Origin: a virus
IMG/VR virus record: IMGVR_UViG_3300034166_000560
Strand: one strand, 5' to 3'
DNA: 64,000 nucleotides
Part shown: positions 42,510-62,801 of the stretch, piece after piece
Position numbering within the stretch: the stretch's first letter is position 1
Layout: each line of letters begins with the position of its first letter
The notes under the pieces: generated by a model
What the model was told of the DNA's origin: nothing
The model's input: the letters and a program-made list of their open reading frames with translations, nothing else
The model's database searches: none
Made by a program: the position numbers and the translations under genes

Positions 42510-42912
42510 AGCCGTAGGCGTTTTCTTCTTCGAGAGAGAATACTGTTCTCTTAATACCAAAGTGTTCGATCGCTTTCTGGCACCCCGGACAAGGTTCGGC
42601 CAGTCCACTTACCCACCCAGTGTCTCCCTTGTTTTGTTTCTTAACACGGTAGACATATAGGGTGGCATCTTTTAGATCATCTTCTTCGACAACTTTCAAT
42701 GCTTTGATAATACAATCCACCTCTGCGTGTTTAAAGATCGCATCGATATTCTTTGCGAACCTTTTCTGCAGAGGATGGGATTTATCTGAGTTGAAACCGA
42801 CAGAGATAATCTCGTTACGAAGAACGAGACACGCTGCCAGTTTCATCTTCATATTATTGGAAGTAGCTAGTCTACGGACAAAGTCCATATATTTCTTATC
42901 ACGAGAACTCAT
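42502..42912 (-). CDS. zinc-dependent cytidine/deoxycytidylate deaminase family protein
   Basis: HAE..PCPGC. Confidence 0.82.
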   Translation of the reverse strand: MSSRDKKYMDFVRRLATSNNMKMKLAACLVLRNEIISVGFNSDKSHPLQKRFAKNIDAIFKHAEVDCIIKALKVVEEDDLKDATLYVYRVKKQNKGDTGWVSGLAEPCPGCQKAIEHFGIKRTVFSLEEENAYGSM

Positions 42913-43459
42913 CTGAGTATCCTAGATTACGAAAGTCTCGGGCGTAGATCTTTCGAACCATATCCACGCTTTCCGAATCATAATCATTATTATACTCTTC
43001 TTTTGAATAAGAGCCAACGTTTATTTTTGGTATACGAATGTTTAGATCTACCTCGAGCTCCCAGAGCTCTTCGTATCTGTAGATCTTATCCATCTCTGTT
43101 ATATCTTCTTCAAAGATATAAAAAGATTGATCGTATTTCATAAGAGGAGTTTTCTCGGTAACTTCTCCTACCATAATCATGGACAAAAAGTTTTTAAAAG
43201 ATATTTGTATTTGATTGAATCGCAAAAAATGATGATAATAACTATACGCTCTTGTGAAGGGATTTCTTACGACAGAGAACTTGAAGACTTCTGGAGTAAT
43301 GTTATTATTAAGTTTGAGAACATGATAAGGATCGTGACCGATATGCCATGTTCTTAACCATGGTTGTTCTCTAAGTTGAGACCTGATAGCGATGCCACCA
43401 GTCTTAGGTATATGAACAAAGAGAAGAGGGGGAAGATCCCCCTCTACATTAGTAATCAT
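42899..43459 (-). CDS. sulfotransferase family 2 protein
   Basis: FVHIPKTGG (5'-PSB), VRNPFTRAYS (3'-PB), IYARDF..GY. Confidence 0.8.
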   Translation of the reverse strand: MITNVEGDLPPLLFVHIPKTGGIAIRSQLREQPWLRTWHIGHDPYHVLKLNNNITPEVFKFSVVRNPFTRAYSYYHHFLRFNQIQISFKNFLSMIMVGEVTEKTPLMKYDQSFYIFEEDITEMDKIYRYEELWELEVDLNIRIPKINVGSYSKEEYNNDYDSESVDMVRKIYARDFRNLGYSDEFS

Positions 43460-44873
43460 AACGCTCGTTCATGATAGTGTCGAGCATAATCGATTCGGGA
43501 GTAAAGGTCTCTACGTTAGCCAAACCCTTCACCAGTGCTGGCGAGAATCCAGAAACAAGAGCAACTCCAGAAGTATCATACTTCACAGGCTGATTACCAT
43601 ACGCAGCATTTAGATTCCAGAACACGATCTTTGGTAGATCATAACCAGCATCCTGATACTTACGAGCAATCATCTGTAATGCGCTATCGTCGAAACGAGT
43701 GCACTGGTTGAACTGCATGTCTGATAGAATAAGCAGCATGTCAGGCATTTCTTCCTGAGGCACATTACCCTTCTTAGCTACATCAAGAACCTTATCCAGA
43801 GCACGGTGCAGATCAGTAGACATAGCCCACTTAGACTGAACCATCTGCTGGCACTTCTGAACGATATTACCGTTTAGGTGCAGCAACTGTGGGTTGTCGC
43901 TGAAAGTCAAGAAGGTATCCTTGAACGCTCCAGTGTTCTTGTCTGCAAGATACAGACCAAGAGACACAGCAACGTCAATGCAAGTAGTACCACTCTTTGA
44001 GTTGTATCCACCAGCAGGAGTGGTCATTGAACCAGAAACGTCAACCAAAGGTAGGATACGGGCATCCCCAACGAAGTTAGGAAGAGCATCCCACTGAGCC
44101 TGAAGATGTCCAAGTTCAGTGGCATCATAGTCGTTTGACCAACGATATGAACATAGACCCTTTAGAACATCGTAAGGATACACAGCACCAGCGTTCACCT
44201 TTACGCCAGCTTCGCCCTTTACGAGCTTCTGAACATACTCAGCAAACTTTACAGAGTGCTTGTTGAATGCCTTCTTGTAACGAGAAGCAGCAAGAGAAGG
44301 AACCTTGTTGTAGTCGATCTCTTCCCACTGCTTTGCGCACATCTGAGTTTCAACAACGTTGGTTAGATTAACCAAAGTCTTACGATACTGCTTTGGAGTC
44401 ATACCAAGGAATGCACGTAGCTCTGCAGCCACTTCACCCTTACGAGGCATCCACTTAGCAACTAGACCAGCAGTATTCTGGTTAGACAATCCTTCACGGA
44501 TAAACTCGAACGCTTCCTTACGGACATCGCCCTTTGCAGTTAGGAGATCATCCCAACGACCAAGTTCCGGAACCTTATGCACGATACGAGCAGCAAGTGC
44601 AGGATCGTTGTCGCATAGGTACTGGAAAATATCACGGAAGATCTTACGTTCACCAGATCCACCACGAGCATCACGTGCCCATAGAGCAATACGAGTTGCA
44701 AGTTCCTTGTTGGTAACATATGCAGCTACGAAAGCAGGGATGATATCCTTACCACGAGAAGCACCAATGTTGAAGTATAGATCAACTAGCGGAGACGCAG
44801 TTGACTTCAGAGCCTTCATACCATTTTCAGTACGTGCTTCCTGATTCTTCACGGCATTAACAAAAGTAGACAT
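43449..44873 (-). CDS. DUF2828-type helical domain plus vWA protein (Ro60/TROVE-like by inference)
   Basis: RTENG, RDARGGSGER, GRWDDL, AKWMPR; vWA MIDAS DVSGS..T..SDMQF; FWNL, VSGFS. Confidence 0.82.
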   Translation of the reverse strand: MSTFVNAVKNQEARTENGMKALKSTASPLVDLYFNIGASRGKDIIPAFVAAYVTNKELATRIALWARDARGGSGERKIFRDIFQYLCDNDPALAARIVHKVPELGRWDDLLTAKGDVRKEAFEFIREGLSNQNTAGLVAKWMPRKGEVAAELRAFLGMTPKQYRKTLVNLTNVVETQMCAKQWEEIDYNKVPSLAASRYKKAFNKHSVKFAEYVQKLVKGEAGVKVNAGAVYPYDVLKGLCSYRWSNDYDATELGHLQAQWDALPNFVGDARILPLVDVSGSMTTPAGGYNSKSGTTCIDVAVSLGLYLADKNTGAFKDTFLTFSDNPQLLHLNGNIVQKCQQMVQSKWAMSTDLHRALDKVLDVAKKGNVPQEEMPDMLLILSDMQFNQCTRFDDSALQMIARKYQDAGYDLPKIVFWNLNAAYGNQPVKYDTSGVALVSGFSPALVKGLANVETFTPESIMLDTIMNERYDY

Positions 44874-44889
44874 TTCACTTTCCTTTTCT

Positions 44890-44950
44890 ACAGATTGAAC
44901 TTTGAGTCAAATTATCAGTTTGATTTTCATTGGATTGCTGAACTCAATCT
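44890..44950 (-). ncRNA. array unit 1: module with an Ile(GAU) anticodon stem-loop
   Basis: AGATTGA-GTTCAGCAA...TCAAA-CTGATAA-TTTGA...TCAATCT-GT. Confidence 0.7.
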
Positions 44951-44957
44951 AAAATTA

Positions 44958-45068
44958 ACAGGATAGATTTTACGTGCTCTACCGACTGAGCTACTCCCCC
45001 ATAGGGAAGGTGGGGCTCGAACCCACGACCACGGCTGTGTAAAAGCAAAACATTGCGGAAACTATCCT
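44958..45068 (-). ncRNA. array unit 2: YrlA-like RNA with a permuted tRNA domain
   Basis: AGGATAG-TTTCCGCAA...T arm GTGGG-TTCGAGC-CCCAC, closed acceptor-like hairpin CTTCCC-TATG-GGGGAG, D arm TAGCTCAGTCGGTAGAGCA...CTATCCT-GT. Confidence 0.8.
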
Positions 45069-45084
45069 AAAACTCTATATTACT

Positions 45085-45112
45085 ATTATACTACACTTTG
45101 CTTAGAAGTCAA
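45085..45112 (-). promoter_or_regulatory. sigma70-like promoter inside the RNA array
   Basis: TTGACT-16 nt-TATAAT on the - strand between units 3 and 2. Confidence 0.6.
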
Positions 45113-45121
45113 GCAAAAATA

Positions 45122-45189
45122 ACAGGATAACATCTTTCTTCGATTACAAGTCGAGTGCTTATTCAGCGATGGTTTGCTGTAGTTATCCT
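45122..45189 (-). ncRNA. array unit 3: module with a Thr(UGU) anticodon stem-loop
   Basis: AGGATAA-CTACAGCAAA...TCGA-CTTGTAA-TCGA...TTATCCT-GT. Confidence 0.7.
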
Positions 45190-45196
45190 AGAACTA

Positions 45197-45249
45197 ACGG
45201 GATCAACTTGGCTTGTTTGTGAGCAACAGTTGAATGCTGAACTGATCCC
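45197..45249 (-). ncRNA. array unit 4: minimal module
   Basis: GGGATCA-GTTCAGCAT...TGATCCC-GT; small internal hairpin containing CTCACAA. Confidence 0.65.
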
Positions 45250-45262
45250 AAAACTTTATACA

Positions 45263-45371
45263 ACAGGATATATTTTTTAGCTCCATGGCTATTAACCACG
45301 ATAGGATTTGAACCTATTATCTTCTGTAATAATACAGATGCTTCGACCGAAGTGTTTGCTGAAAATATCCT
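45263..45371 (-). ncRNA. array unit 5: module with a T-arm and three other hairpins
   Basis: AGGATAT-TTTCAGCAAA...ATAGG-TTCAAAT-CCTAT...ATATCCT-GT. Confidence 0.7.
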
Positions 45372-45379
45372 AAAACTAA

Positions 45380-45582
45380 ACTGGATGGTTGAAGGAATTT
45401 TTATTATTGTTCTGGAGAGACCGATTAACTCGTACGAGTATATCCTTCAACTCTCCCTATCTAATGATTCTCACTAGCAATATTTTCTCTCACCGTAGTG
45501 GAGAAACTCTCTGAACAGTAAGAACCAAAGTTCTTACATCGGAGGAGCCTTACGACTCCGAGTGGTTTGCTGTATCCATCCA
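45380..45582 (-). ncRNA. array unit 6: 203-nt multi-hairpin module
   Basis: TGGATGG-ATACAGCAAA...CCATCCA-GT enclosing several hairpins. Confidence 0.65.
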
Positions 45583-45589
45583 CAATAAA

Positions 45590-45646
45590 ACAGGATCAAC
45601 TTGCATTTTTCGTTCAAAGAAAAGTAGTTATTGCTGAACTGATCCT
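45590..45646 (-). ncRNA. array unit 7: module with an anticodon-like stem-loop (UGA)
   Basis: AGGATCA-GTTCAGCAA...TTTTC-TTTGAAC-GAAAA...TGATCCT-GT; begins 6 nt after the tRNA-Gly CCA. Confidence 0.7.
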
Positions 45647-45652: not shown

Positions 45653-45727
45653 TGGAGCGGGCGACCAGAATCGAACTGGCGACCAACAGTTTGGAAGACT
45701 GTGACTCTACCCCTGAGTTACACCCGC
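45653..45727 (-). tRNA. tRNA-Gly(TCC)
   Basis: cloverleaf, loop CTTCCAA, CCA end. Confidence 0.93.
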
Positions 45728-45927
45728 AAACCCCATTTAATTTTCAACCAAATCCTTTCATGAATATAATAATCTATACTAAGAAGAAGATGAAGTATTG
45801 TAGCAAATCCTGTAGACTTGCCAATGTCACCAGTAAAAACGAAAGTCCAGAATATCGTAAACACCCATGCGGTTAAACGATAACTAATCATTCTTACTAC
45901 TGTACGTTTATGAGTTTCTTGTATCAT
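45718..45927 (-). CDS. DUF2061-like small membrane protein
   Basis: ETHKRTVVRMISYR..YYIHERIW; stop overlaps the tRNA-Gly 5' end; TATAAATA at 45938-45945 upstream. Confidence 0.65.
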   Translation of the reverse strand: MIQETHKRTVVRMISYRLTAWVFTIFWTFVFTGDIGKSTGFATILHLLLSIDYYIHERIWLKIKWGLRV

Positions 45928-46039
45928 TGAGATAACATATTTATATCAGAAAGAATAAAACCAGCGACTATCATCAGTCCAAAGAAACAAATAATTTTGA
46001 TTATTGCGCTCAATTTATGATTCATAATATATCCTCGAT

Positions 46040-46114
46040 TGGATCAGGAACCTGGACTCGAACCAAGATTAACGGAGTCAGAGTCCGTGGTTTTACCGAT
46101 TAAACTATTCCTGA
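46040..46114 (-). tRNA. tRNA-Gln(CTG)
   Basis: cloverleaf, loop CTCTGAC, CCA. Confidence 0.92.
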
Positions 46115-46115
46115 A

Positions 46116-46191
46116 TGGTGCTGGCAGAAGGAATCGAACCCTCGACCTGATGCTTACAAGGCAACTGCTCTACCGTCTGAGCTATACCAGC
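46116..46191 (-). tRNA. tRNA-Thr(TGT)
   Basis: cloverleaf, loop CTTGTAA, CCA. Confidence 0.93.
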
Positions 46192-46192
46192 G

Positions 46193-46552
46193 TTATTGAC
46201 ACACGGTGATCATAATAGGATCACCAAAAATATATCCCAGCGTATCCCATGGATCAGGATATGAAGTGCAAACTGGTTGAACAGGAACTTGCTGAACAAC
46301 TACCGTTGGCGTAACTGGCATCATGTAAACTTGATTACTGACAATGCCAACTCCATTGGGAACGTATTGTGGAGGAATAACCTGCACAACTGGTGCTGGA
46401 GCAACTACAACAGGAGCAGGTCTTACGACCTTCTTAACAACTCGAGTTGTCTTGTATGTGATAGTGCAACCATTACATACATCGATCTCTTGACCTGCAT
46501 AAGCAGGAGTAGCGAAGAGAATAAGAGCGAGAGCGAGCTTCTTAATATCCAT
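46193..46552 (-). CDS. secreted Pro/Val-rich hypothetical protein
   Basis: signal peptide MDIKKLALALILFATPAYA. Confidence 0.6.
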   Translation of the reverse strand: MDIKKLALALILFATPAYAGQEIDVCNGCTITYKTTRVVKKVVRPAPVVVAPAPVVQVIPPQYVPNGVGIVSNQVYMMPVTPTVVVQQVPVQPVCTSYPDPWDTLGYIFGDPIMITVCQ

Positions 46553-46826
46553 AGTAGTATCCTGACGGACCAGAGTAATACTGATAGCGAACTCCCGGAT
46601 AGGGACCATACGCATAGCCTGGACCAGTCGAGTAATATGGATACGGAGCGCCACGATAATACGGACCAGAAGCTAGACCACCAATGAGACCACCAAGAGC
46701 AAAACCAGCAATGGCAGCACCACCGTAACCCCATCCTCCGCCATAGCCCCATCCGCCACGATACCAGGCATTAGCAGGAGTAGTAAGTATACCTAAAACA
46801 GCGGCAATAGCAACAATCTTTTTCAT
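46542..46826 (-). CDS. secreted Gly/Tyr-rich protein (rhizobial BA14K-like architecture)
   Basis: signal peptide, then WYRGGWGYGGG, AAIAGFALGGLIGGLAS and a Tyr/Pro-rich tail. Confidence 0.65.
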   Translation of the reverse strand: MKKIVAIAAVLGILTTPANAWYRGGWGYGGGWGYGGAAIAGFALGGLIGGLASGPYYRGAPYPYYSTGPGYAYGPYPGVRYQYYSGPSGYYYGY

Positions 46827-46904
46827 CTTCATCTCCATAAGATAGCAGATTAACCTTTGATCTACACGAGACTATTTCTGGCGTCCATCCCAATCTATAA
46901 TTCT

Positions 46905-46932
46905 ATTATACCCTATTTATCCTACTAGTCAA
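46905..46932 (-). promoter_or_regulatory. sigma70-like promoter
   Basis: TTGACT-16 nt-TATAAT. Confidence 0.55.
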
Positions 46933-47857
46933 CAAGTAACTGTCTTTTTGTCTGAAAAAGATACTGCTCTCTAATTTTATCGCCAAGTTCTATATAACAA
47001 CAATCGCCGCAATTCCTACCAGTAACGAGATAGTTAAGGACAGCATTTTTATAATTTGCTATGCGGTCTCCAACATTAAGAGCTCTCACATCAACCCCAA
47101 ACCGATGTAACAAAGATATAGAGTTATCAATGTAATACATATCTGAGTTATGGTCAAGTTTACATTCTCGGAGAAACTCTGCGTATTTATCAGGAGATAA
47201 CTTACCAAGACTATAAAGAACAGAATAAACGGTACCAAGTTTATTACCAAGGTTTCCGGATTTAAAAATGTCGCCCACATCCGATACAAGGCCATTGTAT
47301 GAGATATCCTCTATAGAAGTCTTGTCCCAGATAAAGTTCCAATCGTTCTTGATCATATACTCTAGTAACATATACAAACAGCTTGGTTCGCCCAGTTCTA
47401 GATATTTAATCCTATCACATTTATAATTTAAAACAAAATAGTATTGCTGATTATCTTTATCGTAATTTACTGCTTTGATAACTTTAACAGAAGACAAATC
47501 AAATTCTTCTGAGTTTTCAATAATAGATAATTCTTTTACGCCACAAGAGCCAATGAAGTCTGTAAACTGTGGCTGATATTTCTCTTGAAAGATACCACTC
47601 TTATTATTGAACGCCCACTTACGAGCGTATGGTCCCATATAAAAAACGTCAGAGAAATCTACAACATCATAACCGTAAGTATTTACGATTGGATTACTAT
47701 CCAAAAACTGGCCATGATATGGAGCACCAGCGCCTTTGTAATAATACTCTTTACCTTTCGACACTCTTCCATTTACATGCTGCAGGTCATCATCAATCTC
47801 TAGTTTGTCTACTACTTGGCCAACAGAATTATAAATTGGAACAGTTGTCATAATCAC
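46925..47857 (-). CDS. hypothetical protein
   Basis: 310-aa ORF, no recognised motif. Confidence 0.65.
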   Translation of the reverse strand: MIMTTVPIYNSVGQVVDKLEIDDDLQHVNGRVSKGKEYYYKGAGAPYHGQFLDSNPIVNTYGYDVVDFSDVFYMGPYARKWAFNNKSGIFQEKYQPQFTDFIGSCGVKELSIIENSEEFDLSSVKVIKAVNYDKDNQQYYFVLNYKCDRIKYLELGEPSCLYMLLEYMIKNDWNFIWDKTSIEDISYNGLVSDVGDIFKSGNLGNKLGTVYSVLYSLGKLSPDKYAEFLRECKLDHNSDMYYIDNSISLLHRFGVDVRALNVGDRIANYKNAVLNYLVTGRNCGDCCYIELGDKIREQYLFQTKRQLLVD

Positions 47858-48438
47858 TCGCTGTAATGCATATACGAACTTAGTAAATACTTATCGCCTC
47901 TTAATACTGCCTCGCCTGCATGCGGATACATCCAGAAAGGAGGGAACATTAACAGCTTACCTTTTGCTGGTTCGTAATGCAGATTGATATTCGTTATACA
48001 GGTATTTCCGCCACTCTCTGGTCTGTTTAGATACCAAAAGAAAATCATAAACCGTTTGCCAGAAATAAGATCATTCGAATCGATATGTTCATCGAACCGA
48101 TCTATTGACTGTCTGTTAGGATACTCTCTGCCATCCGAATAATGTTTGATTCTAAACTCTTCGAATGCGAAATTCTTTGGCCAGAACCTAGTCTCCGGAA
48201 CTTCCTTACGATATCTCTCGATACCATCGAATGCACGTTCAACTAGATGCTGATGTAGTGTAGGATGTATTAGTTTATGACGACTAAAATTCATCTGCGT
48301 CATATTCGGAAAACCGTCATCATCATATCTGATATGAAGATCTGGTTTCCATTTAAACATCGCAATCAATTCATCGCAAATATCTTCTCCCAAATGATTG
48401 GGATAGACCTTGCAATAATCATGTATGAAGGCAGACAT
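47854..48438 (-). CDS. 2OG-Fe(II) oxygenase
   Basis: FDEHID, WYLN..GGNT, FPPFWMYPHAG, KYLLS. Confidence 0.85.
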   Translation of the reverse strand: MSAFIHDYCKVYPNHLGEDICDELIAMFKWKPDLHIRYDDDGFPNMTQMNFSRHKLIHPTLHQHLVERAFDGIERYRKEVPETRFWPKNFAFEEFRIKHYSDGREYPNRQSIDRFDEHIDSNDLISGKRFMIFFWYLNRPESGGNTCITNINLHYEPAKGKLLMFPPFWMYPHAGEAVLRGDKYLLSSYMHYSE

Positions 48439-48453
48439 ACAACATCCTAAAAA

Positions 48454-48528
48454 TGGCTCCCTGAGAAGGATTCGAACCTCCGGCCAAGTCGTTAACAGCG
48501 ACCTGCTCTACCACTGAGCTACCAGGGA
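48454..48528 (-). tRNA. tRNA-Asn(GTT)
   Basis: cloverleaf, loop CTGTTAA, CCA. Confidence 0.93.
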
Positions 48529-48532
48529 ATAT

Positions 48533-49267
48533 TCATTCTAAGAGATTATCTAAAACCTCTTCCATAAACTGTTTTCTAAGTTTTGATTTTCTAAACAAGT
48601 CATAATAATATTCTAAAGGACTAATCAAAGGATATTTATTATTTCTTGCAGACAAATTTCGTTGCATCAAATGTAAAATTTTCTCTGATGGATAGAACTT
48701 TACCAGTTCTACATTTTCATCGGTCATAAACTTTACATTAAGATAAGGATCTCCACGTTTTAAAGTTACCTCATTATATCCGTTCCTCACGAAAAAGGCA
48801 AACTCTATGTTTCTAATCCATTCATATATATTAAACTGTCCTGGCATACCAATGGTTGTTTTACCAAACTCGGTATCGCCGAGATACGTAGGAGTCGTCT
48901 GAATCTCTACGCTTTGTTCTGGAATAAACCAATAGTATAAATTAAGAGAGATCAATCTCTCTTTTGCCATTCTAACTCTAACAACATCATCAAAAAATTT
49001 CTGATCATACATATCAGAATAGACATCGCCATCGTCAGTAAATTTTAAAGTGTAATCAATAGGAAATCTTAACTCATACGAATTATGAATTCTTCTTTTC
49101 ATACTAGGACAATACTTAAAATTGTCCAACGGTTTTAGATCGTTCGAAGGTAATTTATTAAACAGTTCCGAAGTTTTCATCGGTTCGTAATAATTCAAAA
49201 ACTGGAGCGAATGATTATCACTCTCATTTACATTGAATGTATTTACTGCTGTCCAATAAACTTTCAT
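48533..49267 (-). CDS. hypothetical protein
   Basis: FKYCPS..PGQFNIYEWIR..KRGDP; 244 aa. Confidence 0.65.
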   Translation of the reverse strand: MKVYWTAVNTFNVNESDNHSLQFLNYYEPMKTSELFNKLPSNDLKPLDNFKYCPSMKRRIHNSYELRFPIDYTLKFTDDGDVYSDMYDQKFFDDVVRVRMAKERLISLNLYYWFIPEQSVEIQTTPTYLGDTEFGKTTIGMPGQFNIYEWIRNIEFAFFVRNGYNEVTLKRGDPYLNVKFMTDENVELVKFYPSEKILHLMQRNLSARNNKYPLISPLEYYYDLFRKSKLRKQFMEEVLDNLLE

Positions 49268-49278
49268 AACAACCTCAA

Positions 49279-49352
49279 TGGTACTGGGACCAGGTATCGA
49301 TCCTGAACTACAAGCTCCACAAACTCGTGTGCTACCACTACACTATCCCAGC
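49279..49352 (-). tRNA. tRNA-His(GTG), no encoded G-1, A73
   Basis: GCTGGGA/TCCCAGT-A-CCA, loop TTGTGGA. Confidence 0.88.
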
Positions 49353-49356
49353 AAAC

Positions 49357-49431
49357 TGGATCGGGGACAAGGACTCGAACCCTGATAGACAGAACCAAAA
49401 TCTGCCGTTCTACCAATTAAACTATCCCCGA
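49357..49431 (-). tRNA. tRNA-Gln(TTG)
   Basis: cloverleaf, loop TTTTGGT, CCA. Confidence 0.9.
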
Positions 49432-49438
49432 ACAAAAA

Positions 49439-49522
49439 TGGTGCCGAGAGTAGGGTTCGAACCTACCGTGCTATAAGCGTCCGATTTACAGTCGGGTGCC
49501 CGTCCACTCAGGCGGTCTCGGC
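49439..49522 (-). tRNA. tRNA-Tyr(GTA)
   Basis: loop CTGTAAA, long variable arm, CCA. Confidence 0.9.
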
Positions 49523-49527
49523 ATTAA

Positions 49528-49604
49528 TGGAGTCCCGAACAGGATTCAAACCTGTAGCCTTCGGTTTCGTAGACCGATGCTCTATTCAGTTGAGCTATCG
49601 AGAC
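49528..49604 (-). tRNA. tRNA-Arg(ACG)
   Basis: loop CTACGAA, CCA. Confidence 0.9.
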
Positions 49605-50082
49605 AATCCAGTAATGGAACAGGTGTGTAATCAATTACCTCAACGGAAACATTCTTATATGCTTCATCGGGCAAACTATTACGATGCACATGTCCATGAA
49701 CATTATACTTTGTTTTATACAGACTAGAAACATGCAATGGAATATGCGACAGAGTAGCATTGTATTCCGGAAACATTCTCCAGACCATAATCTTTTGAAA
49801 GACATTCTGTATGTGTTCGTTCTTAGCATTATCATGGTTGCCAAGAATAAGACGCTTACGCCCTTTCAATCTGTAAAGATGCTGATGACCTTTACCAAAA
49901 TAAACATCACCTAGATGATACACAATGTCAGAGTCAGAAACAACACTGTTCCAACGTTCAACCATATGCTCATCCATTTCTTCAACAGAAGAAAAGTTTC
50001 TAACAGGAGAACCATCTGCCTGTTTGAAGTTGAGTATATTAGCATGACCAAAGTGCGTATCACTAACAACAAAGATAGTCAT
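49582..50082 (-). CDS. calcineurin-like metallophosphoesterase
   Basis: SDTHFGH, HLGD, GNHD, SHIP, HGHVH; stop codon lies inside the tRNA-Arg gene. Confidence 0.87.
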   Translation of the reverse strand: MTIFVVSDTHFGHANILNFKQADGSPVRNFSSVEEMDEHMVERWNSVVSDSDIVYHLGDVYFGKGHQHLYRLKGRKRLILGNHDNAKNEHIQNVFQKIMVWRMFPEYNATLSHIPLHVSSLYKTKYNVHGHVHRNSLPDEAYKNVSVEVIDYTPVPLLDCLDSSTE

Positions 50083-50086
50083 AATA

Positions 50087-50164
50087 TGGTACTCCTAGTC
50101 AGATTCGAACTGACACTAGCGATGATTTTGAGTCAACGTCCTCTACCAGTTGGGATATAGGAGC
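50087..50164 (-). tRNA. tRNA-Leu(CAA), short variable region
   Basis: loop CTCAAAA, CCA, 78 nt. Confidence 0.8.
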
Positions 50165-50170
50165 ATTATA

Positions 50171-50272
50171 TGGTAGGCCAGGTAGGAGTTGCACCTACAC
50201 GTTATCCATTATCCGGATAATAGACAACAGCGCCCAGCGTTAGCGCCACGGTTACTATTACGTCACTGACCT
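50171..50272 (-). ncRNA. atypical tRNA-like RNA (non-canonical anticodon loop, very long variable arm)
   Basis: AGGTCAG/CTGGCCT-A-CCA acceptor stem, T arm GTAGG-TGCAACT-CCTAC, GCGCT-AACGCTG-GGCGC arm, long extra hairpin of about 12 bp. Confidence 0.7.
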
Positions 50273-50276
50273 ATAA

Positions 50277-50352
50277 TGGTGCTTCCCCTCAGAATCAAAC
50301 AGAGTCCTCTCGTTCTTCAGACGAGCGTGCGCATCAGCTACACCAGAGAAGC
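50277..50352 (-). tRNA. tRNA-Phe(GAA)
   Basis: loop CTGAAGA, CCA. Confidence 0.85.
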
Positions 50353-50353
50353 A

Positions 50354-50430
50354 TGGTGCCCCAGGAGAGATTCGAACTCCCAACCTTCGGTTCCTAAGAC
50401 CGACGCCTCTACCAATTGGGCTATTGGGGC
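50354..50430 (-). tRNA. tRNA-Leu(TAG), short variable region
   Basis: loop CTTAGGA, CCA, 77 nt. Confidence 0.85.
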
Positions 50431-50519
50431 ATAAACTTACGGGTCTGTGATAGTTACGAGCTAACCAGCACCCTGCCAGAGACTAAGCCATACGTCTATG
50501 ACCGTCCTACTGGAACATA

Positions 50520-50595
50520 TGGTAGGGGATGACAGGATTGAACTGCCGACCTTCGCCGTGTAAAAGCGTTGCTCTCCCAGCTGAGCTAATCCCCC
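50520..50595 (-). tRNA. tRNA-Val(TAC)
   Basis: loop TTTACAC, CCA. Confidence 0.92.
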
Positions 50596-50724
50596 AAAAT
50601 TCCCTGGACCGAAGACTCGTCCGCCTTCCTGCTACTAGTGCACTTTCGCAGTATGGCTCAAATTGTGTCCTGTCTGCACTCGGTCCTACATGCGCTCTAT
50701 TTTTCTACGCCGAAGCGGGCGAAT

Positions 50725-50801
<77 letters not shown>

Positions 50802-50808
50802 ATTATAC

Positions 50809-50884
50809 TGGATGCGATGCGTTGGAATTGCACCAACTTCTACTGGTTTATGAGACCAGCGAGATACTATACCTCCCGCCCGCA
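50809..50884 (-). tRNA. tRNA-Met(CAT), atypical acceptor stem
   Basis: CTGGT-CTCATAA-ACCAG, T arm GTTGG-TGCAATT-CCAAC, bulged acceptor stem, CCA. Confidence 0.7.
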
Positions 50885-50966
50885 AAACTCGCTGTCCCTC
50901 ACGCCTTGGGACGAATGTTGTCTAGTATTACGACACTCCATAAAGGCTGTGTATCTAGATCAAACC

Positions 50967-51041
50967 TGGTGCTGATAGTTGGAATCAAACCAACCTTTAA
51001 AGCCTTATGAGGACTCCTCGACATCTTGCCGACCTACCAGC
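50967..51041 (-). tRNA. tRNA-Met(CAT)
   Basis: GAGTC-CTCATAA-GGCTT, CCA. Confidence 0.8.
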
Positions 51042-51183
51042 GAAATAGCTTCCCTGTTATTATAGAGGTATCGGGACCCTCTACTGGTAAACACCTCGAC
51101 AGACCTAGGAACCATCGATTAGCAGTCCAGCGAAAAATAGAGTCAGGGCACAAATTGTGTCATACATCCCCGACTCATTAAAT

Positions 51184-51257
51184 TGGCACCAGTGGAAGGA
51201 GTCGAACCCTCGCCTAGAGTTTTGGAGACTCCCGTGCTACCGTAACACTTCACTGAT
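51184..51257 (-). tRNA. tRNA-Trp(CCA)
   Basis: loop CTCCAAA, CCA. Confidence 0.9.
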
Positions 51258-51259
51258 AC

Positions 51260-51343
51260 TGGCGGAGGATGAAGGAATCGAACCATCAACCTTTCGGTGG
51301 CGGAGTTTTCAAGACTCTGTGTGCCCCAGGCACGCCATCCTCC
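51260..51343 (-). tRNA. tRNA-Ser(TGA)
   Basis: loop CTTGAAA, variable arm, G73-CCA. Confidence 0.88.
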
Positions 51344-51346
51344 AAT

Positions 51347-51422
51347 TGGTGGAAGTGACAGGCATCGAACCTGCAACCTGCTGCGTGCAAGGCAGCTGCT
51401 CTCCCAGTTGAGCTACACCCCC
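51347..51422 (-). tRNA. tRNA-Ala(TGC)
   Basis: loop CTTGCAC, G3:U70, CCA. Confidence 0.92.
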
Positions 51423-51423
51423 A

Positions 51424-51588
51424 TTGATAATACGCCAACGGACCAACAATGACCAATAGGTAGCCTTATCACCGTTTGCTATTACACCCTCATCGGGTGC
51501 TAACCATCGCAGGTTAGTCTGGATCAATTCTTACCGTATCATTTGTCAACGTTTCGAACCGTAGTCTGATCCGTTGGCGTATTATCAA
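51424..51588 (-). ncRNA. 165-nt structured RNA closed by a perfect 19-bp stem
   Basis: TTGATAATACGCCAACGGA (51424-51442) is the reverse complement of 51570-51588; internal hairpins; directly downstream of a promoter. Confidence 0.65.
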
Positions 51589-51603
51589 GTATTCTATTTA
51601 GTC

Positions 51604-51632
51604 ATAATACTATAAATTTTCTAACAAGTCAA
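51604..51632 (-). promoter_or_regulatory. sigma70-like promoter
   Basis: TTGACT-17 nt-TATTAT. Confidence 0.6.
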
Positions 51633-51641
51633 TAACTTTTT

Positions 51642-51731
51642 TGGCGGAGAGTGAGAGATTCGAACTCTCGGAAGACTTTCGCCCTCGCTTCGTTAGCAGT
51701 GAAGTGCCTTCGACCACTCGGCCAACTCTCC
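51642..51731 (-). tRNA. tRNA-Ser(GCT)
   Basis: loop CTGCTAA, long variable arm, G73-CCA. Confidence 0.93.
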
Positions 51732-51734
51732 AAT

Positions 51735-51826
51735 TGGTAGGGGATCCCGGATTCGAACCGAGTCGAGAACGCTAATCGGGCGCTGAAAGGTTTATAAAAC
51801 CTCCCTGTGTACCAACACCATCCCCC
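51735..51826 (-). tRNA. tRNA with TAT anticodon (Ile-decoding) and a long variable arm
   Basis: GAGGT-TTTATAA-ACCTT, variable hairpin AGCGC-CCGATTA-GCGTT, A73-CCA, 92 nt. Confidence 0.75.
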
Positions 51827-51831
51827 ATATA

Positions 51832-51907
51832 TGGCGGGAGCGACGAGTTTCGATCTCGCTACCTCAGCAGTGACAGTGCTGCGCTCTCCCAATTGAGCTA
51901 CGCCCCC
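51832..51907 (-). tRNA. tRNA-Asp(GTC)
   Basis: loop CTGTCAC, CCA. Confidence 0.9.
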
Positions 51908-51908
51908 A

Positions 51909-52301
51909 TTAAATCAATTTAGAATACTTGTGTCTTTCTTTGTTACCATTGCCTTTATTTAAGGCTTTCCAAGTTGGAGTTAAAGAATGACAATTAGGAC
52001 AAAGAACTTTTAAATTCTCTTCTTTACAGTTAGCACAATCTCCATCTATATGATCTATTTCTAGAGGAGAATTACCAGTCACTGGATTTATTTTATTCCA
52101 TCCACATTCAGAACAACTATAATTAGATTTCTCTAACATATATCTTCTGATATGAGACTTAACTCTTAATCCAGCTTTATATCCTTTGTCATTACCATCA
52201 AACCATTCTTGTAATAGTTTCTTGGTTCTTAACTCTCCCTGGCATTTATTATTACAATACTTACCAGCTTTTATTTCTTTACCGCAATTTAAGCAATGCA
52301 T
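51909..52301 (-). CDS. HNH endonuclease inserted in the tRNA cluster
   Basis: CSECG, LEIDHIDGD..NLKVLCPNCH; TATAAATA at 52333-52340 upstream. Confidence 0.88.
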   Translation of the reverse strand: MHCLNCGKEIKAGKYCNNKCQGELRTKKLLQEWFDGNDKGYKAGLRVKSHIRRYMLEKSNYSCSECGWNKINPVTGNSPLEIDHIDGDCANCKEENLKVLCPNCHSLTPTWKALNKGNGNKERHKYSKLI

Positions 52302-52356
52302 CTAATACCTCATAAACTGACGCCTTTTGCTTTATTTATAAAACCACGGTGTTTAA

Positions 52357-52433
52357 TGGAGGATCCTCTGGGATTCGAACCCAGGACATACCGATTAAAA
52401 GTCGGATGTTCTAACCTACTGAACTAAGGATCC
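52357..52433 (-). tRNA. tRNA-Lys(TTT)
   Basis: loop CTTTTAA, CCA. Confidence 0.92.
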
Positions 52434-52436
52434 AAA

Positions 52437-52512
52437 TGGTAGACCTGGAGGGATTCGAACCCCCGTCAAGAGATTAAGAGTCTCCTGCTAAAACCAACTC
52501 AGCTACAGGTCC
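52437..52512 (-). tRNA. tRNA-Lys(CTT)
   Basis: loop CTCTTAA, CCA. Confidence 0.9.
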
Positions 52513-52637
52513 ATAAATTCCTTGTACCGTTTCCATCTTACCCTTCCATGGCGAGAAAAGACAGCGCCCTTGCGGGTTATTTTAATTCGGACACTCCTCC
52601 ATCGAGGATTCGCACGGTACCACACGGACCGAATATA

Positions 52638-52712
52638 TGGTGACTCCTGGGGGAATCGAACCCCCCTACCAAGATTGAAAGTCTTGTGTCCTAACCGATA
52701 GACGAAGGAGCC
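52638..52712 (-). tRNA. tRNA-Glu(TTC)
   Basis: loop CTTTCAA, CCA. Confidence 0.9.
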
Positions 52713-52785
52713 ATAAACTCTCGGGTTGCTACCACCCAACCCTTCCCGAGACCATTAAAATGGTAGTTGTAGCCTCGGAGTATTC

Positions 52786-52860
52786 TGGTTGTTCCACCAA
52801 GAATCGAACTTGGATCTAACGATTATCAGTCGTTTGCACTAACCGTTGTGCTATGGAACA
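52786..52860 (-). tRNA. tRNA-Ile(GAT)
   Basis: loop CTGATAA, CCA. Confidence 0.9.
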
Positions 52861-52869
52861 ATAATAACA

Positions 52870-52998
52870 CTTAGAAAGATACAGGTTTACTATATCTCGG
52901 ACGGAGATGGTTGCAACCAGAGCCCACGGATAAAGATACAAGGTTTGAGCATCAGTATTTACTGGCGCCTTGCTCGCACGAGCCTGTACCTATCTAAG
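52870..52998 (-). ncRNA. putative 129-nt structured RNA
   Basis: terminal pairing CTTAGA/TCTAAG plus TACAGG/CCTGTA; first element after the 53011-53039 promoter. Confidence 0.5.
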
Positions 52999-53010
52999 CA
53001 TTATATATTC

Positions 53011-53039
53011 ATTATAACCTAAACTTCCGAAGAAGTCAA
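53011..53039 (-). promoter_or_regulatory. sigma70-like promoter for the tRNA cluster
   Basis: TTGACT-17 nt-TATAAT. Confidence 0.7.
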
Positions 53040-53047
53040 CAACTTTT

Positions 53048-53127
53048 TGGAGGGAGTGATGGGACTCGAACCCACATATTTTAGGTTTTGCAGACCTTGC
53101 CGTAACCAATTCCGGACACACACTCCC
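53048..53127 (-). tRNA. tRNA-Cys(GCA)
   Basis: loop CTGCAAA, U73-CCA. Confidence 0.85.
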
Positions 53128-62121: not shown

Positions 62122-62801
62122 TGTAAGTCCTCGATTGATGGAAACTCATACCTATTATAGCTTATAACTTTGAAATTATCAATAATGAAATGTTCAAACA
62201 TAGGAGCAGCTACTTGAATATCTAATCCGCTTCTTTTTAGAATATCTGCTGTTGATGCAAATATAATACCATTTGCTCCATAAGAATAATGCAATGGTCT
62301 GGCTTCGTTACGGAAAGCAGTAATTACTTTATCTTTATCAAGAGTGCAAACCGACATGCTTGCAGGATGGAACTTATGTAAAGGGAGTTCGCCTTTCTCT
62401 AAACAACGAAGAATAAGTTCGCTATCATTCTTTGTGATAACATCATAACCAAATGTTTCTTTCCATTGTTCTGGATTCTCCTGAGAGATAACTCCATTAT
62501 GAACAATAGAAAGTTCTTCGGTTGCCATTGGTTGATTGTAAGCAAGATCGCTAGTTGAGTAACGAACATGACCAATACAATATAGATTGCCATCTTCATT
62601 AACCCAACTAGGAATATCTTGATTGTTTATGAATGTGCAAGCATTAACAGGTTCTTTAATAGTGTGAACCTTGCCATCTTTGACATATGATACACCAGTG
62701 GCATGTTTACCACGGATCATTGACTGAACAAAAAGCCGACGAACAAGTTCGAATTCCTGCTCGCTCGGCTTCTTGATCGCTATTCCTAGCACTCCGCACA
62801 T
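62118..62801 (-). CDS. class II glutamine amidotransferase / Ntn-hydrolase domain protein
   Basis: N-terminal MCG, RGKHATG, GHVRYST, NQP, HNGVI, NDSE, RPL. Confidence 0.85.
   Translation of the reverse strand: MCGVLGIAIKKPSEQEFELVRRLFVQSMIRGKHATGVSYVKDGKVHTIKEPVNACTFINNQDIPSWVNEDGNLYCIGHVRYSTSDLAYNQPMATEELSIVHNGVISQENPEQWKETFGYDVITKNDSELILRCLEKGELPLHKFHPASMSVCTLDKDKVITAFRNEARPLHYSYGANGIIFASTADILKRSGLDIQVAAPMFEHFIIDNFKVISYNRYEFPSIEDLQ

What the first reader, a model, noticed from the sequence alone, without database searches (positions are those of the whole stretch)
43449..45646. Ro60-like (DUF2828/vWA) gene preceded by a seven-unit array of modular Y-RNA-like RNAs
Seen in sequence: the 757 nt between tRNA-Gly and the DUF2828/vWA start codon consist almost entirely of seven units on the - strand (53-203 nt each). 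Each unit is a 7-bp 5' arm, the motif NTWCMGCA, variable cargo, the complementary 7-bp arm and GT. The arms differ between units but always stay complementary: AGATTGA/TCAATCT, AGGATAG/CTATCCT, AGGATAA/TTATCCT, GGGATCA/TGATCCC, AGGATAT/ATATCCT, TGGATGG/CCATCCA, AGGATCA/TGATCCT. This is covariation that supports RNA structure. The last unit ends 16 nt before the ATG. Established knowledge: Ro60/Rsr proteins have a helical TROVE ring plus a vWA domain, bind a conserved terminal stem of Y RNAs encoded next to them, and bacterial YrlA RNAs carry tRNA-mimic domains. Inference: this protein is a Ro60-like scaffold loaded with a panel of RNAs that share one handle but display different tRNA-mimic effectors. 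Such a modular RNP could act as a decoy against host tRNA-targeting defences or as an adaptor. I do not recognise the handle motif as the canonical Y RNA bulged helix.
Basis: partly seen in the sequence, partly recalled or inferred. Interest (0 to 1): 0.95.

Follow-up and report, generated by a model that had tools for sequence, protein, structure and literature searches.

The report
Phage Ro60-like protein's partner-RNA array
A large tRNA-rich phage places seven small RNA genes in front of the gene for a ring protein that folds like the RNA-surveillance protein Ro60. The seven share one short "handle" but carry different tRNA look-alike parts, and this protein-RNA pairing recurs in very different phages yet is absent from Rfam and from the papers I could search.

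Summary
Seven head-to-tail units on the minus strand (44890-45646) each have a 7-bp closing stem, the motif NUWCMGCA, a variable cargo, the complementary arm and GU. Chance gives about 0.5 such units per window.

- **Protein:** the downstream 474-aa gene is Pfam DUF2828+DUF7788. It has no Pfam TROVE hit, but its confident model superposes on Ro60 over the whole ring plus vWA domain (Z 21, 401 residues).
- **Association:** the same handle lies beside this gene family, always on the gene's strand, in related metagenomic phage contigs and in the eight isolated phages checked, from hosts as distant as Salmonella, Vibrio, Synechococcus, Listeria, Staphylococcus and Mycobacterium. A covariance model found it nowhere else in five complete phage genomes, apart from one extra copy in KVP40's tRNA region.
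- **Cargo:** five of the seven cargoes mimic tRNA. One is a circularly permuted tRNA-Val (YrlA-like core). Two are hairpins whose loops equal the phage's own tRNA-Thr and tRNA-Ile anticodon loops.

Most likely these are Y-RNA-type partner RNAs of a divergent Ro60-like protein. Binding and biological role are untested. The handle also resembles Dictyostelium Class I RNAs. This scan has flagged the same system before on many other genomes. I found no publication or Rfam family for it.

The parts
43449..44873 (-). 474-aa Ro60-fold protein gene (Pfam DUF2828 + DUF7788 vWA; PHROG 850 'RNA-binding protein')
   Evidence: AlphaFold model pLDDT 91, pTM 0.89. Best PDB matches are all Ro60: Foldseek E 6.5e-9, TM 0.63; VIA Z 21.1, 401 residues aligned, rmsd 3.7. 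MIDAS residues D278, S280, S282, T353 and D385 are invariant in 58 homologues.
44874..44889 (-). 16-nt spacer holding the ribosome-binding site (AGAAAAGGAAAGUGAA) between unit 7 and the ATG
   Evidence: The same 16-nt spacing occurs in L004, L005-L008 and L011 (unit ends, gene starts; L005 read directly).
44890..44950 (-). Unit 7 (61 nt). Arms AGAUUGA/UCAAUCU. Cargo is the hairpin UCAAA-CUGAUAA-UUUGA, whose loop equals the phage's own tRNA-Ile(GAU) anticodon loop.
   Evidence: Best match of Rfam Dicty_Class_I_RNA in the whole record (16.9 bits).
44958..45068 (-). Unit 6 (111 nt). Arms AGGAUAG/CUAUCCU, motif UUUCCGCA. Cargo is a circularly permuted tRNA-Val-like body: anticodon-type loop UUUACAC, T arm, acceptor stem closed by UAU, D arm.
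   Evidence: Rfam YrlA 42 bits, E 1.6e-7, model positions 23-87 only. After joining the halves in tRNA order, ARAGORN calls tRNA-Val(UAC). Covariance model hit E 6.5e-3; this unit was not in the training set.
45085..45112 (-). Sigma-70-type promoter-like site TTGACT-16-TATAAT (11 of 12 positions) between units 5 and 6
   Evidence: The same element stands at the equivalent place in relative L005.
45122..45189 (-). Unit 5 (68 nt). Arms AGGAUAA/UUAUCCU. Cargo is the hairpin UCGA-CUUGUAA-UCGA, whose loop equals the phage's own tRNA-Thr(UGU) anticodon loop.
   Evidence: The same loop sits on covarying stems in L015, L016 and L005.
45197..45249 (-). Unit 4 (53 nt). Arms GGGAUCA/UGAUCCC. Minimal unit with no tRNA-like part. 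The same arms recur in relatives L004-L016.
45263..45371 (-). Unit 3 (109 nt). Arms AGGAUAU/AUAUCCU. Four-hairpin cargo including a T-arm-like AUAGG-UUCAAAU-CCUAU.
   Evidence: Fold z-score -3.49. T-loop found. Covariance model hit E 1.6e-5; this unit was not in the training set.
45380..45582 (-). Unit 2 (203 nt). Arms UGGAUGG/CCAUCCA, motif AUACAGCA. Long multi-hairpin cargo of unknown kind.
   Evidence: Fold -63.3 kcal/mol, z-score -3.86, 0 of 200 shuffles as stable. No Rfam match.
45590..45646 (-). Unit 1 (57 nt). Arms AGGAUCA/UGAUCCU. Cargo is the hairpin UUUUC-UUUGAAC-GAAAA, which is anticodon-loop-like (U33, UGA, A37) but not identical to any own tRNA loop.
   Evidence: Second-best Dicty_Class_I_RNA match in the record (13.7 bits).
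45653..45727 (-). tRNA-Gly(UCC), the last gene of the 24-tRNA cluster (45653-53125). Units 1-5 follow it directly on the same strand.
45797..45824 (-). Promoter-like site TTGGCA-16-TACAAT (10 of 12 positions, TG before the -10 hexamer) upstream of tRNA-Gly
   Evidence: This is a consensus match only; the region's promoter-like count is not above the shuffled expectation.
43425..43445 (-). Terminator-like GC-rich hairpin plus T-rich tail just after the stop codon. It lies inside the first codons of the next ORF.

Best explanation
The seven units are genes for small non-coding RNAs that are the Y-RNA-type partners of the Ro60-fold protein encoded directly downstream.

**Handle.** Each RNA has a constant handle: a 7-bp stem that joins its two ends (5' RGR.../...YCY 3'), a single-stranded 5'-strand motif N-U-W-C-A/C-G-C-A-A, an A-rich 3' strand and a 3' GU. 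I take this handle to be the protein's docking site. It would play the role of the GGUCCGA or GNCGAA helix of canonical Y RNAs.

**Cargo.** The variable cargo is presented away from the handle. In this phage it is a whole tRNA-Val body rearranged so that it has no chargeable end (unit 6). It is a bare anticodon arm copying the phage's tRNA-Thr and tRNA-Ile loops (units 5 and 7) and a Ser-like one (unit 1). It is a T-arm-containing body (unit 3), a long structured RNA (unit 2) and an almost empty unit (unit 4).

**Expression.** Units 1-5 are probably transcribed with the tRNA cluster. Units 6-7 probably share a conserved internal promoter with the protein's mRNA. All would then be cut out at the short GUUNNNUUU spacers.

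**Role.** The resulting particles most likely present tRNA look-alikes to factors that recognise tRNA. They could act as decoys for host tRNA-cutting defences or tRNA-modifying enzymes, or as adaptors that bring such factors, or an RNase as in Ro60-Y RNA-PNPase, to the ring.

**Shown here:** the units, the handle's conservation, its genomic linkage to the gene, the protein's Ro60 fold and the tRNA-like nature of the cargo. **Inferred:** expression and processing, binding, and the role. I give the decoy role about 0.3 on its own.
For: 1. Units and chance level: seven units against 0.48 expected per window.
2. Protein fold: Z 21.1 over 401 residues to Xenopus Ro60. All ten best chains are Ro60 proteins, including Thermus phage phiLo Ro60, followed by a drop to Z 11 for vWA-only matches. 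The MIDAS motif is invariant.
3. Linkage in metagenomic relatives: in 16 loci (129 kb, both strands), all 45 covariance-model hits at E<=0.05 are on the gene's strand and lie beside the gene or in the tRNA cluster next to it. Many of them were not used to build the model.
4. Linkage in isolated phages, by the strict pattern scan: one unit just upstream of the gene in Synechococcus phage BUCT-ZZ01, one just downstream in Cronobacter S13, and one about 3 kb upstream in KVP40. By the relaxed scan (any base at three motif positions, tail G): four units in the tRNA cluster just downstream in FelixO1, three just downstream in mycobacteriophage Rumpelstiltskin and in Staphylococcus 6ec, and three just upstream in Listeria LP-048.
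5. Genome-wide specificity: in the five complete genomes searched (KVP40, FelixO1, Rumpelstiltskin, LP-048, 6ec; 627 kb) the model hits only these places, plus one further unit in KVP40's tRNA region 7 kb from the gene.
6. The seven stem positions take 2 to 4 different pair types each across units. The motif C-x-G-C-A is invariant across units.
7. Cargo: YrlA core match in unit 6 and tRNA-Val call after un-permuting. Loops of units 5 and 7 are identical to the phage's own tRNA-Thr and tRNA-Ile anticodon loops, where about 0.02 such identities are expected among the 16 hairpins found. Of 51 units, 18 carry an anticodon-arm-like hairpin against 2.8 +/- 1.6 in shuffled cargo.
8. Precedent: Ro60 genes of bacteria and phages have Y RNAs with tRNA-like domains encoded next to them (PMC4201824; PMC12135203).
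9. In Listeria phage LP-048 the gene lies 1.3-4 kb from an RtcB-like ligase gene and an RNA ligase gene. This echoes the bacterial rsr-yrlA-rtcBA operon (PMC7790460, abstract).
Against: - No experiment or read-level data show that the RNAs exist as discrete species or that the protein binds them.
- The protein has no Pfam TROVE match even at E<=1. A sequence profile reaches Ro60 only marginally, and only in the MIDAS region (E 0.036).
- The canonical Ro60-binding motif is absent from the handle. One GUCGAAG inside unit 3's cargo is at chance level (17% of shuffles).
- The units used for the pair counts were picked because their arms pair, so 100% pairing is by construction.
- Short units are not more stable than shuffles (z -0.9 to +0.5 for units 1 and 7).
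- Two of seven cargoes, and about two thirds of units family-wide, show no tRNA-like hairpin. tRNA mimicry therefore cannot be the whole story.
- No RNA-repair gene was found in this half-complete record.
Confidence: 0.7

Rival explanations
1. The handle is a processing or stability cassette for small RNAs embedded in tRNA operons. It would be read by a host enzyme (RNase P, RNase E or a tRNA-end processing factor) or by some other protein. The Ro60-like gene would sit nearby only because it belongs to the same tRNA-region gene set, or because it acts on these RNAs as substrates rather than using them as partners.
For: - The units sit in or next to tRNA clusters: this window, FelixO1, KVP40.
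- The spacers are short and stereotyped, GUUNNNUUU.
- The 7-bp stem has the length of a tRNA acceptor stem.
- M. smegmatis YrlA is cut by RNase P (PMC4201824).
- In Dictyostelium the protein shown to bind the look-alike Class I RNA directly is an RRM protein, not a Ro-like one (PMC7919456).
Against: - In Rumpelstiltskin and Staphylococcus phage 6ec the units adjoin the gene with no tRNA cluster around them: no annotated tRNA within 5 kb in Rumpelstiltskin, and one tRNA 1.4 kb away in 6ec.
- Linkage to the gene holds across hosts with very different RNA-processing machinery.
- The conserved single-stranded CAGCAA is not a known RNase P or RNase E determinant. This rests on my own knowledge.
Confidence: 0.13
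2. The array is mainly a cis-acting leader. The protein, or a tRNA-related signal, binds the handle nearest the start codon and controls translation or stability of the Ro60-like mRNA. The other units would be duplicates with no function in trans.
For: - Unit 7 ends 16 nt before the ATG, with the ribosome-binding site in between.
- The 16-nt spacing is kept in relatives with 64-88% protein identity.
- A conserved promoter places units 6-7 in the mRNA's 5' leader.
Against: - In FelixO1, Rumpelstiltskin, Staphylococcus 6ec and Cronobacter S13 the units lie downstream of the gene. In KVP40 they lie 3-7 kb away.
- Units 1-5 stand upstream of the internal promoter.
- The elaborate and conserved cargo (permuted tRNA, anticodon arms) is not needed for an operator.
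- Autoregulation could still exist on top of a trans role.
Confidence: 0.05
3. The units are permuted or split tRNA genes that are processed into working tRNAs, as permuted tRNA genes are in some algae.
For: Unit 6 holds every part of a tRNA-Val in permuted order. Relatives carry tRNA-Lys-like and tRNA-Gly-like bodies inside handles.
Against: - Most units have only an anticodon arm or no tRNA part at all.
- The acceptor end of unit 6 is closed by a 3-nt loop with no CCA.
- The phage already has normal tRNA-Val, tRNA-Thr and tRNA-Ile genes.
- The conserved handle has no role in that pathway.
Confidence: 0.03

Closest known systems
Ro60 (Rsr, TROVE2) with Y RNAs, especially bacterial and phage YrlA (Rfam RF02553; Chen et al. 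2014, PMC4201824) and Thermus phage phiLo Ro60 with Yrl1/Yrl2 (PMC12135203)
   Same: - Ring of helical repeats plus a vWA domain with a MIDAS motif.
- Small RNAs are encoded beside the gene.
- The RNA ends are closed by a stem, with a conserved 5'-strand motif next to it.
- The effector module is a tRNA look-alike made of T arm, closed acceptor stem and D arm. Unit 6 matches the YrlA core at 42 bits.
   Different: - The protein belongs to Pfam DUF2828/DUF7788, not TROVE.
- The handle motif is UWCAGCAA rather than GNCGAA or GGUCCGA.
- There are up to seven or eight RNAs per locus rather than one to four.
- Many cargoes are bare anticodon arms, or are not tRNA-like at all.
- No unit reaches the YrlA gathering score.
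Dictyostelium Class I RNAs (Rfam RF01414; Kjellin et al. 2021, PMC7919456)
   Same: - Size 42-65 nt, against 53-68 nt for the short units here.
- A 6-bp stem joins the ends; the structure is kept while the sequence varies.
- A single-stranded motif next to the 5' arm contains UUACAGCAA (Rfam consensus).
- The ends are conserved: the RNA starts AAG and ends CUGU. Five of the seven units here end CUGU.
[quoted passage not shown]
- The two best RF01414 matches in the whole 90-kb record are units 7 and 1, each aligned end to end.
   Different: - Scores are far below the family cut-off (16.9 and 13.7 bits against 41.5).
- Class I RNAs are eukaryotic genes with their own promoter element and are reported as unique to dictyostelids.
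- The shown direct binder is the RRM protein Rnp1A/CIBP.
- Whether dictyostelids have a DUF2828 protein, and whether the unnamed pull-down protein DDB_G0281243 is one, could not be checked here.
Phage-encoded tRNAs that resist or replace tRNAs cut by host defences (T5 tRNA-Lys against PARIS; PMC11455837)
   Same: The elements are phage-borne, lie in tRNA clusters and carry anticodon loops of particular tRNAs.
   Different: The units here cannot be charged: they have no free acceptor end or no acceptor stem at all. They could act only as decoys or adaptors, not as replacement tRNAs. No defence system has been linked to them.

Membership tests
Ro60 / TROVE protein family | Match to the Pfam TROVE model (PF05731) | tested here: not met
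   Pfam scan of the protein gives only DUF7788 and DUF2828. A six-frame search of the whole record with PF05731 finds nothing at E<=1. A 58-sequence profile reaches phiLo Ro60 at E 0.036 and Xenopus Ro60 at E 0.29, in the MIDAS region only.
Ro60 / TROVE protein family | Helical-repeat ring followed by a vWA domain (overall fold) | tested here: met
   Model pLDDT 91, pTM 0.89. VIA Z 21.1, rmsd 3.7 A, 401 residues aligned, spanning model residues 6-457 and Ro60 residues 12-537. Ranks 1-10 are all Ro60. Foldseek TM 0.63-0.64.
Ro60 / TROVE protein family | MIDAS motif (DxSxS...T...D) in the vWA domain | tested here: met
   D278, S280, S282, T353 and D385 are invariant in the 58-sequence alignment.
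Ro60 / TROVE protein family | Binds Y RNA on the ring's outer face and single-stranded RNA ends in the hole | not testable with these tools
   No tool here models protein-RNA complexes. It needs gel-shift assays, immunoprecipitation or cryo-EM.
YrlA Y RNA (Rfam RF02553) | Score at or above Rfam's gathering cut-off (69 bits) over the whole model | tested here: not met
   Only unit 6 matches, at 42 bits over model positions 23-87 of 114. The Ro60-binding ends of the model are not matched.
YrlA Y RNA (Rfam RF02553) | tRNA-like module: T arm, acceptor stem closed by a loop, D arm | tested here: met
   Met for unit 6 only. Relatives have equivalent units in L005 and L016.
YrlA Y RNA (Rfam RF02553) | 5' motif GNCGAAN0-1G next to the closing stem (Chen et al. 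2014) | tested here: not met
   The handle carries NUWCAGCAA instead. The single GUCGAAG lies inside unit 3's cargo, and 17% of shuffles contain such a match.
Dictyostelium Class I RNA (Rfam RF01414) | Score at or above Rfam's gathering cut-off (41.5 bits) | tested here: not met
   Unit 7 scores 16.9 bits and unit 1 scores 13.7 bits. These are nevertheless the two best matches in the 90-kb record.
Dictyostelium Class I RNA (Rfam RF01414) | Short stem joining the ends, motif containing UUACAGCAA beside the 5' arm, 3' end CUGU | tested here: met
   The stem is 7 bp here against 6 bp. U(U/A)CAGCAA is present in units 1, 2, 3, 5 and 7. CUGU ends units 1, 3, 5, 6 and 7. This is a resemblance in form; common descent is not shown.

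The most novel reading that the evidence does not exclude
The phage handle RNAs and the Class I RNAs of dictyostelid amoebae are one ancient RNA class whose handle is the docking site of DUF2828-type Ro60-like proteins. Class I RNAs, published as unique to Dictyostelia and of unknown mechanism, would then be the eukaryotic branch of a ribonucleoprotein family that phages use to display exchangeable tRNA parts. The unnamed protein pulled down with Class I RNA (DDB_G0281243) could be the Ro-like partner.
Probability: 0.2. Interest if true: 0.9.

Novelty: new variant of a known kind. Interest (0 to 1): 0.8.

Why it matters
Ro60-Y RNA particles are known from animals, some bacteria and a few phages, but their purpose outside animals is still unclear.

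- **Scale and novelty.** This is a second, much larger branch. The protein family has more than 6,000 clusters at 50% identity and occurs in 701 deposited phage genomes. It uses a different handle and a modular RNA design in which one docking element carries interchangeable tRNA parts.
- **Annotation.** These small RNA genes are currently unannotated, or possibly mis-called. In Cronobacter phage S13, strict-pattern candidates overlap features annotated as 113-121-nt tRNAs.
- **A testable idea.** Phages may field panels of uncharged tRNA look-alikes against host factors that act on tRNA.
- **Experimental systems.** Laboratory phages that carry the system are available for genetics: FelixO1, KVP40, Listeria P100-type phages, Staphylococcus 6ec and mycobacteriophage cluster L.
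- **Dictyostelium.** It may also explain the orphan Class I RNAs.

Tried and rejected
- **Close DNA relatives.** Megablast of the locus against deposited phages gave no match, so relatives were reached through the protein.
- **Protein names.** NCBIfam gave no family. The ESM Atlas returned only DUF2828 phage clusters and no eukaryotic lead.
- **Rfam.** At E<=10 over the array it gave nothing for the handle beyond the YrlA core of unit 6 and the weak Class I match. The other rows (snoRNA, CRISPR-DR19, HrrF and the like) are chance-level.
- **Expression.** Six RNA-library runs hold only 4-8% of the sampled words. When laid, contigs from one study cover 45397-45626 (unit 2 and part of unit 1). 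A contig from another study covers 45077-45202 and is joined to 45231-45255. All are relatives at 95-99% identity. Contigs show no transcript ends, and DNA carry-over cannot be excluded, so I count this as no evidence either way.
- **RNA-repair neighbours.** No RtcB or RNA-ligase gene lies in this record. The record is about 54% complete, so this is inconclusive.
- **Canonical Ro60 motif.** One GUCGAAG occurs in unit 3's cargo, at chance level.
- **Long cargoes.** An alignment of unit 2 with the long units of BUCT-ZZ01, KVP40, L011 and L014 showed only one possibly shared hairpin and no convincing homology.
- **Terminators.** No terminator-like site lies inside the array. The only one follows the gene and sits inside the next ORF's first codons.
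- **Papers.** Searches for DUF2828, 'Ro-like RNA binding protein', YrlA with phage, TROVE/vWA/bacteriophage/Y RNA, and tRNA mimic/decoy/anticodon nuclease found no description of these RNAs. Avesson et al. 2011 and Sim et al. 2020 are not held, so the identity of DDB_G0281243 could not be checked.
- **Rejected readings.** I rejected chance repeats, mobile-element inverted repeats (the arms differ between units and there is no transposase) and intrinsic terminators (the stems enclose 35-190 nt).

Full report
**Setting.** The window is part of a 90-kb linear IMG/VR virus record estimated at 54% complete. It has 39.6% G+C. It carries a replicative helicase, a primase, a ribonucleotide reductase and a virion protein, and 25 tRNA genes. 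Twenty-four of these form a minus-strand cluster at 45653-53125. It is therefore a large, tRNA-rich tailed phage.

**The observation.** Read on the minus strand, the stretch from the last tRNA (tRNA-Gly, 45653-45727) to the ATG at 44873 is filled by seven units.
Shuffled windows give 0.48 matches.
- Units are separated by 8-15 nt. The exception is a 53-nt gap between units 5 and 6 that holds a near-consensus promoter, TTGACT-16-TATAAT.
- The last unit's GU lies 16 nt before the start codon, and the ribosome-binding site is in between.

**The protein.**
- The 474-aa product matches Pfam DUF7788 and DUF2828 and PHROG 850, 'RNA-binding protein'. It matches no NCBIfam model and not Pfam TROVE.
- It belongs to a very large family: 6,259 representatives at 50% identity. 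Relatives occur in 701 deposited phage genomes. Some are annotated 'Ro-like RNA binding protein' in mycobacteriophages and 'RNA-binding protein' in RefSeq.
- A model built on 58 homologues is confident (pLDDT 91, pTM 0.89).
- Its ten best structural matches in the PDB are all Ro60 proteins: Xenopus, human, Deinococcus and Thermus phage phiLo. They align over the whole chain (Z 21.1, 401 residues, rmsd 3.7 A). The score then drops to Z 11 for proteins that share only the vWA domain.
- The MIDAS residues are invariant. At sequence-profile level the link to Ro60 is marginal.
- It therefore has the fold of Ro60, but by sequence it is a separate family.

**Linkage of the handle to the gene.**
- In 13 IMG/VR contigs encoding relatives (49-88% identity), arrays of one to eight units stand directly upstream of the gene on its strand.
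- The pairing also holds in eight isolated phages from distant hosts. The strict pattern finds one unit just upstream of the gene in Synechococcus phage BUCT-ZZ01, one just downstream in Cronobacter S13, and one about 3 kb upstream in Vibrio KVP40. A relaxed pattern (any base at three motif positions, tail G) finds four units in the tRNA cluster just downstream in Salmonella FelixO1. It finds three just downstream in mycobacteriophage Rumpelstiltskin and in Staphylococcus 6ec, and three just upstream in Listeria LP-048.
- A covariance model of the handle (27 short units, 7 pairs) gives 45 hits at E<=0.05 in 129 kb of these loci. All are on the gene's strand and lie beside the gene or in the tRNA cluster next to it.
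- In five complete genomes (627 kb) it hits only the gene-adjacent units, plus one further unit in KVP40's tRNA region.
- In this record it hits six of the seven units and nothing else.
- The position varies between phages (upstream, downstream, or a few kb away), which argues for a trans-acting partnership rather than a leader.

**The handle.**
- Profiles over 62 pattern matches, roughly ten of them false positives inside coding regions, show a stem whose outer three pairs are mostly R-G-R with Y-C-Y. Next comes N-U-(A/U)-C-(A/C)-G-C-A-A, then an A-rich stretch before the 3' arm, then G-U.
- All seven stem positions take several pair types. These units were selected for pairing, so the real support is the chance level and the linkage, not the 100% pairing figure.
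- The motif differs from the GNCGAA of YrlA and the GGUCCGA of animal Y RNAs.

**The cargo in this window.**
- Unit 6 is a permuted tRNA. In order it has an anticodon-type loop UUUACAC (identical to the phage's tRNA-Val loop), a T arm, an acceptor stem closed by UAU, and a D arm. Rfam's YrlA model matches this core (42 bits). ARAGORN calls tRNA-Val(UAC) once the halves are rejoined in tRNA order.
- Units 5 and 7 carry 4-5-bp hairpins whose 7-nt loops equal the phage's own tRNA-Thr(UGU) and tRNA-Ile(GAU) anticodon loops. About 0.02 such identities are expected by chance.
- Unit 1 has a Ser-like loop, and unit 3 has a T-arm-like hairpin within a stable four-hairpin fold.
- Unit 2 is a long, very stable RNA of unknown kind. 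Unit 4 is nearly empty.
- In relatives the Thr-type loop CUUGUAA and the Ser-type loop CUUGAAA recur on stems that covary.
- Across 51 units, 18 carry an anticodon-arm-like hairpin against 2.8 in shuffled cargo. The units of FelixO1, Listeria and Staphylococcus phages mostly do not.

**Expression signals.**
- The internal promoter before unit 6 is conserved in relative L005. Units 6-7 therefore probably share a transcript with the protein's mRNA, and units 1-5 with the tRNA cluster.
- The 16-nt distance from the last unit to the ATG is kept in L004, L005-L008 and L011. That is compatible with added autoregulation or with processing that defines the mRNA's 5' end.
- Public RNA libraries gave only contig-level matches from relatives, which I do not count as evidence.

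**Interpretation.** The best reading (0.7) is a Ro60/Y-RNA-type ribonucleoprotein in which a divergent Ro60-fold protein docks on the stem-CAGCAA handle and the RNA presents a variable module, often a tRNA part.
- The biological role is inferred. Decoys or adaptors for factors that recognise tRNA fit the cargo and the known contest over tRNAs between phages and hosts (PMC11455837). An RNA-repair or decay role fits the RtcB and RNA-ligase neighbours in Listeria phage LP-048 and the Ro60-Y RNA-PNPase precedent.
- The rivals are a processing cassette unrelated to the protein (0.13), a pure cis leader (0.05) and permuted tRNA genes that mature into working tRNAs (0.03).

**Comparison with known systems.**
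- The system works like Ro60 with YrlA. It fails the sequence-level membership tests of both TROVE and RF02553, so I file it as a new variant of that kind.
- Following a lead from earlier notes of this scan, I checked the resemblance to Dictyostelium Class I RNAs. Rfam's consensus is a 6-bp stem, CUUACAGCAAU, a variable part, the stem and UG. The paper describes a stem joining the ends, an unstructured 11-nt motif beside the 5' arm, and conserved AAG and CUGU ends.
- The two best matches of that model in the whole record are units 7 and 1, aligned end to end, but at 16.9 and 13.7 bits against a cut-off of 41.5.
- The likeness in form is real. Common origin is open, and I could not check whether dictyostelids have the protein.

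**Earlier notes of this scan.** The same protein-RNA pairing has been reported by this scan on at least 39 other genomes. My conclusions rest on the tests above and agree with those notes. I found no publication or Rfam family describing the RNAs.

Noticed in passing
L002 (Cronobacter phage S13) 5896-6138 and 6154-6288: Two features annotated as a 121-nt 'tRNA-Ser' and a 113-nt 'tRNA-OTHER' just downstream of the Ro60-like gene overlap strict-pattern handle candidates (AGTTTGT ATTCAGCA ...). A clear unit with a T-arm cargo follows at 6154-6288. The oversized 'tRNAs' may be mis-called handle RNAs with tRNA-like cargo. The covariance model did not score them.
   Followed up: partly
L021 (Listeria phage LP-048) 7852-9063 and 10623-11503: An RtcB-like tRNA-splicing ligase gene and a putative RNA ligase gene lie 1.3-4 kb downstream of the Ro60-like gene and its three handle units. 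This echoes the bacterial rsr-yrlA-rtcBA operon. Neither gene type was found in this window's incomplete record.
   Followed up: partly
NC_005083.2 (Vibrio phage KVP40) 176663-176722, minus strand: A further handle unit (43.5 bits, not used to build the model) lies in KVP40's tRNA region, about 7 kb from the Ro60-like gene. It is additional to the 247-nt unit right after tRNA-Ser-1.
   Followed up: no
window 45380-45582 (-); L001 3651-3830; L003 595-843: The long cargoes of unit 2, BUCT-ZZ01 and KVP40 seem to share one hairpin with covarying stems: CUAGUGA-GAA-UCAUUAG, CAAGUGA-CGA-UUACUUG and a KVP40 version. This hints at a conserved 'long-type' cargo of unknown nature.
   Followed up: partly
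window 51735-51826 (-): ARAGORN calls a 92-nt tRNA-Ile(UAU) with the anticodon at position 31. This is an unusual length and geometry for a tRNA-Ile. It may hold an insertion or be another odd tRNA-like gene.
   Followed up: no
window 62801-63979 (-): A 392-aa ORF matches PHROG 24024 and, weakly, a queuine tRNA-ribosyltransferase family. It may be a tRNA- or DNA-base-exchange enzyme in the same phage.
   Followed up: no
window 42899-43459 (-) and 43425-43445: A sulfotransferase-like ORF (Pfam Sulfotransfer_2, 2.3e-5) starts 11 nt before the Ro60-like gene's stop. The terminator-like GC hairpin lies inside its first codons, so read-through or an internal start must be at work.
   Followed up: no
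window 45718-45927 (-): A 69-aa DUF2061 (predicted membrane protein) ORF ends inside the first 10 nt of tRNA-Gly. A promoter-like site (45797-45824) lies within it.
   Followed up: no
L005 2437-2504: A unit in a close relative carries the motif variant UUACUGCA (U in place of A before GCA) and is still found by the covariance model (E 1.2e-3). The motif's fifth position therefore tolerates A, C and U.
   Followed up: partly
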